A stretch of DNA of 64,000 nucleotides. Source: Mayamaea pseudoterrestris (taxonomy: Eukaryota). Shown piece by piece: positions 16,950 to 19,331 of the stretch (position 1 is the stretch's first letter; each line of letters opens with the position of its first letter). The notes under the pieces were generated by a model that was not told where the DNA came from, searched no databases, and saw nothing but the letters and a program-made list of their open reading frames with translations. The stretch is taken from NCBI GenBank assembly GCA_027923505.1, contig BROI01000014.1, positions 434,001 through 498,000 of the forward strand. Direction: 5' to 3'. A program made the translations under genes and the position numbers.

Positions 16950-19331
16950 CTAATTACCTCCTGCGTTCGCATTTGACTTCATTAAGAGACGTCTCTTCTC
17001 CACCGTCAACGCGCCGTAACGTCTCTGTAGTTCAGCTTCTTCGTTTCGCAGTCTCTCAACGTCTTGGCTAATTGACGCAAGCCTTCTCTCTCCACCCGTT
17101 CTCTCCTGAAACCGCAACAACTCGTAAACAGACTCTTCTATCTCTGAATTGTCTATGTCTGCATGCAGTCCGACAATTTGCTCGCCCAACTGACCACAAC
17201 GCTTGACATATCCGCCATTTACGACTCCCAACTTCGACTCCGCTTTGTCATTCCTTTTTCTCAGAGTGCTTGTCGCTGCTTCAAGGGTTTGTAACTCTAA
17301 TTTCAAACTGCCAATTGTTACTTGATCCGAACTGGCATCAACCCAACCGTCCAATGTATACACCATATCATCCGCACCAAATGGCGACATTTTCTGATGC
17401 ACATCCGATAGCAACACCGCTGAGTCATAGGGCTGATCCAGCACTCCATCGTTTTGTATGTCAATCAATTCCGCCGACACGCTCTCCTTCGCCGCCGCAA
17501 GATAATCCTCTGCAATGTCATCCAGTACGACAGCGTCTGCTGCATCAAAAATTGGCTCCACTATCTTTGCCTTCTTCCTTTTCTTGCCATCGCCATCGTC
17601 TGGTATTACAAGTGGGTGCACCGTGGCATCATGTTGTAGCAAAAGAATCGTTTCTTGATGAACAAGCTTGCGAGCCTCATCCTCAGACGGCGACGATGCA
17701 TAGTGACCCGATACTCTGGCCGGCCTGGGAAGCCCTTTGCGCTTTAAAACACTTGACTGTTGTTCGTATCGCTTCTCGGCTTCCCTCTGCAACTTTGCGC
17801 GCTCCGCTGCTTCCAAATCTGCTTGATCAGCTTCTTCGACAACCGTCTCAACCTGCATATCTTCGCCATTGCTTGGAACCGCCAACTCATATTCATACTG
17901 AGGAGCCGGTAGTGCCGCCAACGCTGCTTCTAACTCCATCCTCGCGCGCTTAGTAGCTTGCTTCTGCTGCCGCGCCAAATCTCTAATCGAAAGCTGCGAT
18001 GTGGCAAATGTGCTTCCACCAACCGAAGCCGCATCATTGAGCCCAAACGCGTCACGACGAATAGGTGTGCGTCCCGCACCGGCCCGGTCAGGCAATTGCG
18101 GTGTCGGCGCAGCAGCTATTTTTCTGTCGCCCTCGTCCATTTCCTCGTCATCGAACGCTTCACCAGGCCCACCCATAAGCAATGGCGTCTGCCCGCGCTC
18201 CAGCGTACGAAGTTGACTCGCTTCCCTCACCAGATCGCGGCCCAATCCCGAGGTAGCAGGCGTCCGCATGGGTGTCGGTAATGGACGATCCGAGTAGTCA
18301 CCCAACAATGCCTGCGTCACGCTCGAACCACCAGTTTCATACTGCATTGCCCGCGCGTGTTCCGTCGACGCCAACTGCGCCAATTCGTCGTCGGTCACCA
18401 TTGGTGCAGGCAGCTGCAGGCTTCCTCTCGGTCGCGCCGGAGCCTCCTCCTCCTTGGGGGCTTGCTCTGCATACTTTTTATTCGAGTCTTCAAGCATTTT
18501 GAATCGCCGTTCATCCGCCTTGCGCCGCTGTGCTTCCTCAAAATCGCGACTACGGTAGCGATTCTCGTTGACTTGTTTGAAATCAATTTGCTTGAGCCGT
18601 TTCTCCCGAATTGAATTAGTTCGCGAAACCTCGTCCGACGTGTCATGAATTCCAGCTGGCGCTGGCTTGTGAAAGGGTATTTCAACTCCAAGATCGATCT
18701 CCTTGCTCCGCTTTGCCTTTTTCTTGGCGGCTTGGCTCATTAATCCAGCCTGTTTGAGCTCTCTACGCTTTTGCAGATCAGCCAAGCGCTTGGCTTGCGC
18801 CAACATCTTTTCTCGTTGCTTCCGCTTGGCCTATTTACCTTGCGTATTAGCAAGACGCGCCCTCGCTTCCTGAAGCATTTCCAATTCCTCGTCATCCATG
18901 TCAATGGAATCAGGCTTGGCCGGTTTCGTTTCCGGATGCGAATCAATCTGACCCGCCCGCAACGACGTCGCCTGCTTGCGCAACTCATCCGTTGCCTCAT
19001 CGCCTCCAGCCGCTTGATCCAATAAATACTCGTAATGCTCCTGACACTGCGTCGCAGTCCGTCCCACCATTGGCGCAATCGTTTTCCACTGCGCCGGCAT
19101 GAGCTTGGCCAAATGCAGCAGTTTTTCCTCCTCGGGTCGACTCCATTCCGTCTTGCGAATGGATGGATCAAGCCACTCGTGCCAACGGGCCTTGCACTGC
19201 TTGGCAGTCTTTTTGTTCAGCAGTGACGCGACGCGGGCCCACTGATTCTTGCCGTACTTTTGAATGGCAGCCTTGAGGACTTCGTCTTCGCTATTCTTCC
19301 AAACGCCGCCTTTCAAAAAGACCTTGACCAT
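16950..19331 (-). CDS. CDC5L: Pre-mRNA splicing factor CDC5L/Cef1, interrupted by one in-frame TAG at 18833-18831
   Basis: Myb repeats ([15 protein letters not shown]...[11 protein letters not shown]) and [20 protein letters not shown]...[11 protein letters not shown]. The two listed ORFs are in the same frame, separated only by the TAG. Confidence 0.92.

What the first reader, a model, noticed from the sequence alone, without database searches (positions are those of the whole stretch)
18822..18845. In-frame TAG at a conserved Lys of the essential splicing factor CDC5L
Seen: the minus strand reads AAT ACG CAA GGT AAA TAG GCC AAG CGG, with 166 codons before and ~627 codons after, all in one intact frame. 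Known: the family motif is [13 protein letters not shown], so TAG replaces a Lys (AAG>TAG, one base), and CDC5/Cef1 is essential where tested. Inference: either a recent null allele/homeologue covered by another copy, a base-call error, or recoding (readthrough/editing). A-to-I editing would give Trp, not Lys.
Basis: partly seen in the sequence, partly recalled or inferred. Interest (0 to 1): 0.7.

Follow-up and report, generated by a model that had tools for sequence, protein, structure and literature searches.

The report
Stop allele in diatom CDC5L gene
The assembled copy of an essential splicing gene in a diatom has a premature stop codon, but sequencing data show an intact version of the same gene, so this is an ordinary broken allele or a single wrong base, not a new way of reading the genetic code.

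Summary
The TAG is in the assembly (18831-18833, minus; codon 167 of a 793-codon, intron-less CDC5L), at a Lys kept in 119 of 119 homologs, and this is the genome's only CDC5L locus. But 4 of 4 sequencing runs laid (two studies; two at depth under 5) carry a contig reading AAG there. The 5' half of the gene lies in a strongly heterozygous diploid tract, and the assembly is a site-by-site mosaic of two haplotypes; the TAG sits in a block with four synonymous allele differences. Allele differences are 29 synonymous to 4 missense, so both copies were under purifying selection. No recoding support: TAG ends 84 of 248 long ORFs (and CDC5L itself), eRF1 is canonical, 0 of 50 tRNA genes read have a suppressor anticodon, and 17 candidate internal stops in 864 kb show no TAG bias. 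Best reading: a recent heterozygous null masked by the intact homolog (about 0.55); a consensus base error is the close rival (about 0.37). The runs are bubble-collapsed contigs and cannot separate these. Recoding under 0.05. Earlier scan notes report other isolated premature stops in this assembly. Ordinary.

The parts
16950..19331 (-). CDC5L/Cef1 coding sequence, single exon, 793 codons plus terminal TAG
18831..18833 (-). In-frame TAG at codon 167; AAG (Lys) in run contigs and Lys in 119 of 119 homologs
18834..19331 (-). 166-aa truncated product (two Myb repeats, ends inside the basic motif); held in the protein collection as a one-member cluster seen on one contig
16953..18806 (-). 618-aa downstream model from Met176, held separately in the protein collection (gene annotated as two pieces)
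18833..18873 (.). Block of five linked differences between assembly and all four runs: the stop/Lys site and four synonymous third positions (18849, 18858, 18864, 18873)
18225..21200 (.). Heterozygous tract: paired contigs at about half depth; assembly differs from both haplotype arms in turn (mosaic)
   Evidence: tables 3 and 8
15000..18200 (.). Homozygous tract covering the 3' half of CDC5L; run X1 matches with 0 differences in 3201 bases (left end is the edge of what was laid)
   Evidence: table 8
18833..18840 (-). AG|GTAAAT donor-like sequence overlapping the stop; in-frame excisions from it would delete 9 to 36 conserved codons

Best explanation
The organism is a diploid diatom with two diverged homologs of this chromosome. 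One homolog carries a recent A>T nonsense change at Lys167 of CDC5L; the other is intact and supplies the protein, so the null is recessive and masked. The haploid assembly, a site-by-site mosaic of both homologs, happened to keep the stop allele. Its mRNA would end translation after 166 codons, 1.9 kb before the normal stop, and is probably degraded by nonsense-mediated decay or gives a Myb-only fragment lacking the C-terminal Prp19/PRL1-binding part. Shown: an intact AAG version exists, the region is heterozygous, the code is standard. Inferred: that TAG is a true allele, its recency, and NMD.
For: AAG contig in 4 of 4 runs laid, at about half depth in X1 (51.8 against 126.6 in the homozygous tract). 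TAG is 16-40 bases from four synonymous differences, so the assembly follows a real second haplotype here. The assembly switches haplotype within 17-18 bases (18357/18375; 18759/18776), as per-site majority consensus does, and such a consensus rarely miscalls a homozygous base (inference). 0 differences from X1 in 3201 homozygous bases that include 7 A/T runs of 5 or more. 29 synonymous vs 4 missense differences over 245 and 859 sites (only the rows the tool showed, 192 rows were hidden). UPF1 present. Loss-of-function alleles are common in a heterozygous diatom (PMC10833087, 10.1101/176008; passages read).
Against: No run showed TAG: each has one contig over the site and the other arm of the bubble is absent, so the allele was never seen outside the assembly. 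X1 and X2 took opposite arms at 9 of 11 variant groups between 18309 and 19287 (my grouping of displayed rows) yet agree here, which would also fit AAG on both homologs. The site lies in an A-run (AAAAAG), a usual place for consensus errors. The error bound from the laid stretch (under 1e-3 per base) still allows the few internal stops seen in 864 kb to be errors. In Phaeodactylum most loss-of-function alleles fall in large families, whereas CDC5L is single-copy and essential in yeast (PMC3355604, passages).
Confidence: 0.55

Rival explanations
1. Consensus base error: both homologs read AAG and the assembly has one wrong base in a five-A run inside a SNP-dense block, where polishing is least reliable. 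The gene is simply intact.
For: AAG in 4 of 4 runs, TAG in none; X1 and X2 agree here though they disagree at 9 of 11 nearby variant groups; homopolymer context; the truncated 166-aa and 618-aa products are each seen on one contig only; an error rate of 1e-4 would give about 2.4 stops in the 155,142 codons of long ORFs surveyed.
Against: 0 differences in 3201 homozygous bases; none of the displayed rows in three two-arm stretches (about 1.7 kb) shows both arms differing from the assembly, though 192 rows were hidden; contigs drop one arm of a bubble, so absence of TAG is uninformative; no frameshift found in three split window genes inspected, whose breaks show intron-like GT donors.
Confidence: 0.37
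2. Recoding: the TAG is real and translated, by programmed readthrough, a TAG-as-Lys code or RNA editing, giving full-length CDC5L.
For: The downstream 626 codons are intact; a second in-frame TAG lies in the SprT/GCNA gene of the same window; Lys is among residues inserted at UAG by near-cognate tRNAs (recalled, not confirmed).
Against: An intact AAG allele removes the need. TAG is a normal terminator: 84 of 248 long-ORF stops, and CDC5L's own end. eRF1 has canonical GTS, TASNIKS, YxCxxxF and GGQ motifs (motif names recalled). 0 of 50 tRNA genes read have CTA, TTA or TCA anticodons (list incomplete). Candidate internal stops are 8 TGA, 5 TAG, 4 TAA. Context is UAG-G with no unusual 3' structure (z -1.59, 15 of 200 shuffles as good). 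No homolog shares the stop (0 of 119). A-to-I editing would give Trp.
Confidence: 0.03
3. Rescue of a real TAG allele by splicing or re-initiation: the change makes AG|GTAAAT, a slightly better 5' splice site, and a 78- or 108-nt in-frame excision removes the stop; or Met176, 9 codons downstream, re-initiates a separate C-terminal protein.
For: Donor-like sequence overlaps the stop and in-frame AG acceptors exist at 27, 45, 78 and 108 nt; Met176 is in frame.
Against: Every such excision deletes near-invariant residues (most of 165-197 are kept in 117-119 of 119 homologs); no joint was listed at this place in any run (no run on record as RNA); re-initiation after a 166-codon ORF is inefficient (general knowledge).
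Confidence: 0.03

Closest known systems
CDC5L / Cef1 / Cdc5 (Prp19-NTC core subunit; Pfam PF00249 x2 + PF11831)
   Same: Same domain order and length; up to 69% identity to unnamed diatom homologs, 54-55% to Fistulifera and Seminavis proteins; invariant basic motif
   Different: The assembled copy has a stop at the motif's second Lys; no homolog examined (0 of 119) shares it
Loss-of-function alleles in heterozygous diatoms (Phaeodactylum tricornutum accessions; PMC10833087, 10.1101/176008)
   Same: Premature stop in a highly heterozygous diploid diatom; neighbouring homozygous tract fits mitotic loss of heterozygosity (10.1101/2020.11.08.373134, abstract only)
   Different: Here the gene is single-copy and essential elsewhere, and heterozygosity of the stop itself is inferred, not seen
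Ambiguous or reassigned UAG codes (ciliates, Blastocrithidia, Amoebophrya; search listing only)
   Same: An in-frame TAG at a conserved position of a core gene
   Different: There UAG is frequent inside genes at one amino acid; here long ORFs lack it, it ends a third of genes, and no cognate tRNA was found

Membership tests
CDC5L/Cef1 | N-terminal tandem Myb repeats | tested here: met
   PF00249 two stretches, E 2.5e-23
CDC5L/Cef1 | Myb_Cef domain and full-length homology | tested here: met
   PF11831 E 7e-33; 99% coverage to many CDC5/CEF1 proteins
Heterozygous nonsense allele | An intact allele exists in the organism | tested here: met
   AAG in 4 of 4 runs
Heterozygous nonsense allele | Site lies in a diploid heterozygous region | tested here: met
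   paired half-depth contigs and synonymous variants flanking the site
Heterozygous nonsense allele | Stop allele present in about half of raw reads | tested here: inconclusive
   only bubble-collapsed contigs were available; other arm absent
UAG-reassigned or ambiguous genetic code | Many in-frame TAG at conserved positions of one amino acid | tested here: not met
   5 TAG among 17 candidates in 864 kb; 3 TAG in 150 kinase matches listed, not cut out
UAG-reassigned or ambiguous genetic code | TAG depleted as terminator | tested here: not met
   TAA 87, TAG 84, TGA 77
UAG-reassigned or ambiguous genetic code | Cognate CUA/UUA tRNA | tested here: not met
   0 of 50 tRNA genes read; search scored 63 of 826 candidates and is incomplete
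Programmed stop-codon readthrough | Stop and leaky context conserved in relatives | tested here: not met
   0 of 119 homologs stop here; UAG-G context; fold z -1.59. The search was limited to 436-1390 aa, so truncated relatives could not appear
Programmed stop-codon readthrough | Ribosomes or peptides beyond the stop on the stop-bearing mRNA | not testable with these tools
   needs ribosome profiling or proteomics
RNA editing of a stop | DNA reads TAG while RNA reads a sense codon | tested here: not met
   AAG is present in genomic-type contigs that span intergenic DNA (X1, X2); no RNA run could be compared

The most novel reading that the evidence does not exclude
The TAG is a true allele that still yields working CDC5L through unusually high Lys readthrough (or a cryptic splice), with a few other isolated TAGs such as the one in SprT/GCNA tolerated the same way: an early, leaky stage of UAG ambiguity in a diatom.
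Probability: 0.03. Interest if true: 0.75.

Novelty: already known. Interest (0 to 1): 0.08.

Why it matters
Mostly as a caution: a collapsed assembly of a heterozygous diatom can display stop codons in essential genes, and here that split CDC5L into two database proteins (166 and 618 aa). If the allele is real it is one example of a recessive-lethal null carried about 600 bases from the edge of a homozygous tract, a small handle on mutation load and loss of heterozygosity in clonal diatoms. It does not indicate a new genetic code.

Tried and rejected
Second CDC5L copy or haplotig: none (other hits are 29-48% Myb proteins). Suppressor tRNA: a pattern hit at G000:C26:92798 looked like a CUA anticodon but is tRNA-Arg(UCU) read one base off; ARAGORN on 50 of the 106 pattern matches found 5 ordinary tRNAs. 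Intron around the stop: no room, alignment is colinear; the 8-nt GT..AG would shift the frame. Exact 35-nt pattern with either base in metagenome contigs: 0 hits, uninformative. Cluster look-up of the truncated product: one member, one contig. GCNA stop as a second Lys site: the column is variable (S 29, K 20, Q 18, A 15, R 11, others 24, not covered 3, of 120), so it cannot test a TAG-as-Lys idea. Other survey candidates: 4 look like in-frame introns, 4 like Copia relics (motifs recalled, no Pfam hit), the rest unresolved. One paper search on diatom UAG recoding listed no diatom case among 15 of 87 papers shown. Scan look-up by sequence: nothing.

Full report
Observation. The minus strand has one frame from ATG 19331 to TAG 16950, interrupted only by TAG at 18833-18831, codon 167. 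Read through it is a 793-aa CDC5L with two Myb repeats and Myb_Cef. Named relatives are diatom proteins, so the organism is taken to be a diatom; its genome holds 30.6 Mb in 41 contigs. Of 120 hits listed, one is the window's own downstream piece; the other 119 all have Lys at the site, and residues 140-202 align without insertion.

Copy number. Searches of the own genome with the N-terminal protein, 801 bases of DNA and the Myb_Cef model each give one CDC5L locus. The protein collection holds the gene as two one-member pieces of 166 and 618 aa on a single contig.

Sequencing runs. Seven runs were listed, none on record as RNA; four were laid on 15000-21200. All are assembled contigs. Each has one contig over 18833 and each reads AAG (depths 51.8, 37.8, 3.1, 2.3; the last two are weak on their own, and X1 may be the source sample). 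In all four the AAG is linked to four differences at 18849-18873, all synonymous. From 15000 to 18200 the DNA is homozygous and X1 matches the assembly at all 3201 bases; from 18225 on there are paired contigs at half depth, and the assembly differs from each arm in turn, switching within 17-18 bases. The site thus lies in a heterozygous diploid tract of a collapsed, mosaic assembly. Among the 34 displayed differences inside the gene, 29 are synonymous, 4 missense and 1 the stop, over 245 and 859 sites (192 rows of the table were hidden), so both versions were functional for most of their divergence.

What the runs cannot say. The other arm of the bubble at 18833-18873 is absent from all four runs, so TAG was not seen outside the assembly. 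For a real allele: it sits in a block of genuine synonymous variants, the assembly is otherwise exact where it can be checked (7 A/T runs of five or more without error), and site-wise consensus seldom invents a base at a homozygous site (inference). For an error: an A-run context, four of four runs on the AAG arm although X1 and X2 disagree at 9 of 11 nearby variant groups, and an error bound loose enough to explain a few stops per megabase. I put these at about 0.55 and 0.37.

Recoding tests. In 864 kb (the window and 80 stretches of 10 kb from five contigs) long ORFs end in TAA 87, TAG 84, TGA 77 times, and CDC5L itself ends in TAG. Of 2750 adjacent same-frame segments, 17 look coding on both sides (8 TGA, 5 TAG, 4 TAA); CDC5L ranks first. 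Fifteen were scanned against Pfam and six viewed at DNA level: four look like in-frame introns, four of the 17 like Copia relics (recalled motifs), one is the SprT/GCNA stop, the rest are unresolved. Ten of 150 kinase matches listed contain stops (7 TGA, 3 TAG, 2 TAA; not cut out). eRF1 keeps its usual motifs. All 50 tRNA matches were read and none has a stop-reading anticodon; Lys-CUU (two) and Lys-UUU are normal; the list is incomplete, as 63 of 826 candidates were scored. The context is UAG-G with no notable downstream structure. A donor-like AG|GTAAAT overlaps the stop, but each in-frame excision removes near-invariant residues.

Mechanism. If real, the allele terminates after the Myb repeats, losing the C-terminus that binds Prp19 and PRL1 (PMC3355604, passages read; the same review calls Cef1/Cdc5 essential in yeast and notes a dispute over lethality of one Arabidopsis allele). 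UPF1 is present, so decay is plausible but untested. The intact homolog covers it. Such alleles are common in Phaeodactylum: 902 genes in ten accessions, mostly of large families (10.1101/176008, passages), and 1898 nonsense SNPs with most SNPs heterozygous in 17 accessions (PMC10833087, passages). Mitotic loss of heterozygosity is reported in diatoms (10.1101/2020.11.08.373134, abstract only) and could explain the homozygous tract. PMC8136774 (two passages) supports only that the base after the stop matters. No supplements were consulted.

Earlier scan notes mention premature stops in RlmN and in an NAA80-ACTMAP fusion of the same assembly; I did not check them. They fit scattered nulls or errors of mixed stop type.

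Verdict. A true feature of the assembly, explained by a heterozygous null or one wrong base, with an intact allele shown. Already known kind; interest 0.08.

Noticed in passing
window 55190-57139 (+), stop at 56474-56476: SprT/GCNA-like gene with a second in-frame TAG at the start of the SprT domain; homologs run through it with a variable residue. In-frame GT..AG excisions ending at this TAG exist but would remove sequence that aligns to homologs or lack a convincing donor.
   Followed up: partly
window 21163-29644: Tandem duplication of a 4241-base unit (asparaginase plus an unassigned 611-codon ORF) with one mismatch between copies; very recent or an assembly artefact.
   Followed up: partly
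window 15000-18200 versus 18225-21200: Sharp change from a homozygous tract to a highly heterozygous one (arms differ from the assembly at 65 and 42 of about 900 bases at 19446-20342) in the middle of CDC5L.
   Followed up: partly
L119 7198-7200 (+) (G000:C2, stretch 1570001-1580000): In-frame TGA between 335 and 147 strongly coding-like codons, no obvious intron, no Pfam match; another candidate premature stop.
   Followed up: partly
L059 and L060 (G000:C24, about 19 kb apart): Two near-identical Pelota-like genes (label from recalled sequence features), suggesting another local duplication.
   Followed up: no
window 12678-16913 (+): 1411-codon ORF joining ankyrin repeats to IBR and Ariadne domains (ANKIB1-like RBR ligase), tail to tail with CDC5L, stops 36 bases apart.
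   Followed up: no
window 1657-4257 (-): ORF combining DHH, EF-hand and CBS domains.
   Followed up: no
window 50556-51940 (-): ING N-terminal domain followed, across an apparent intron, by an SGF29 tudor-like domain: possibly one fused gene.
   Followed up: no
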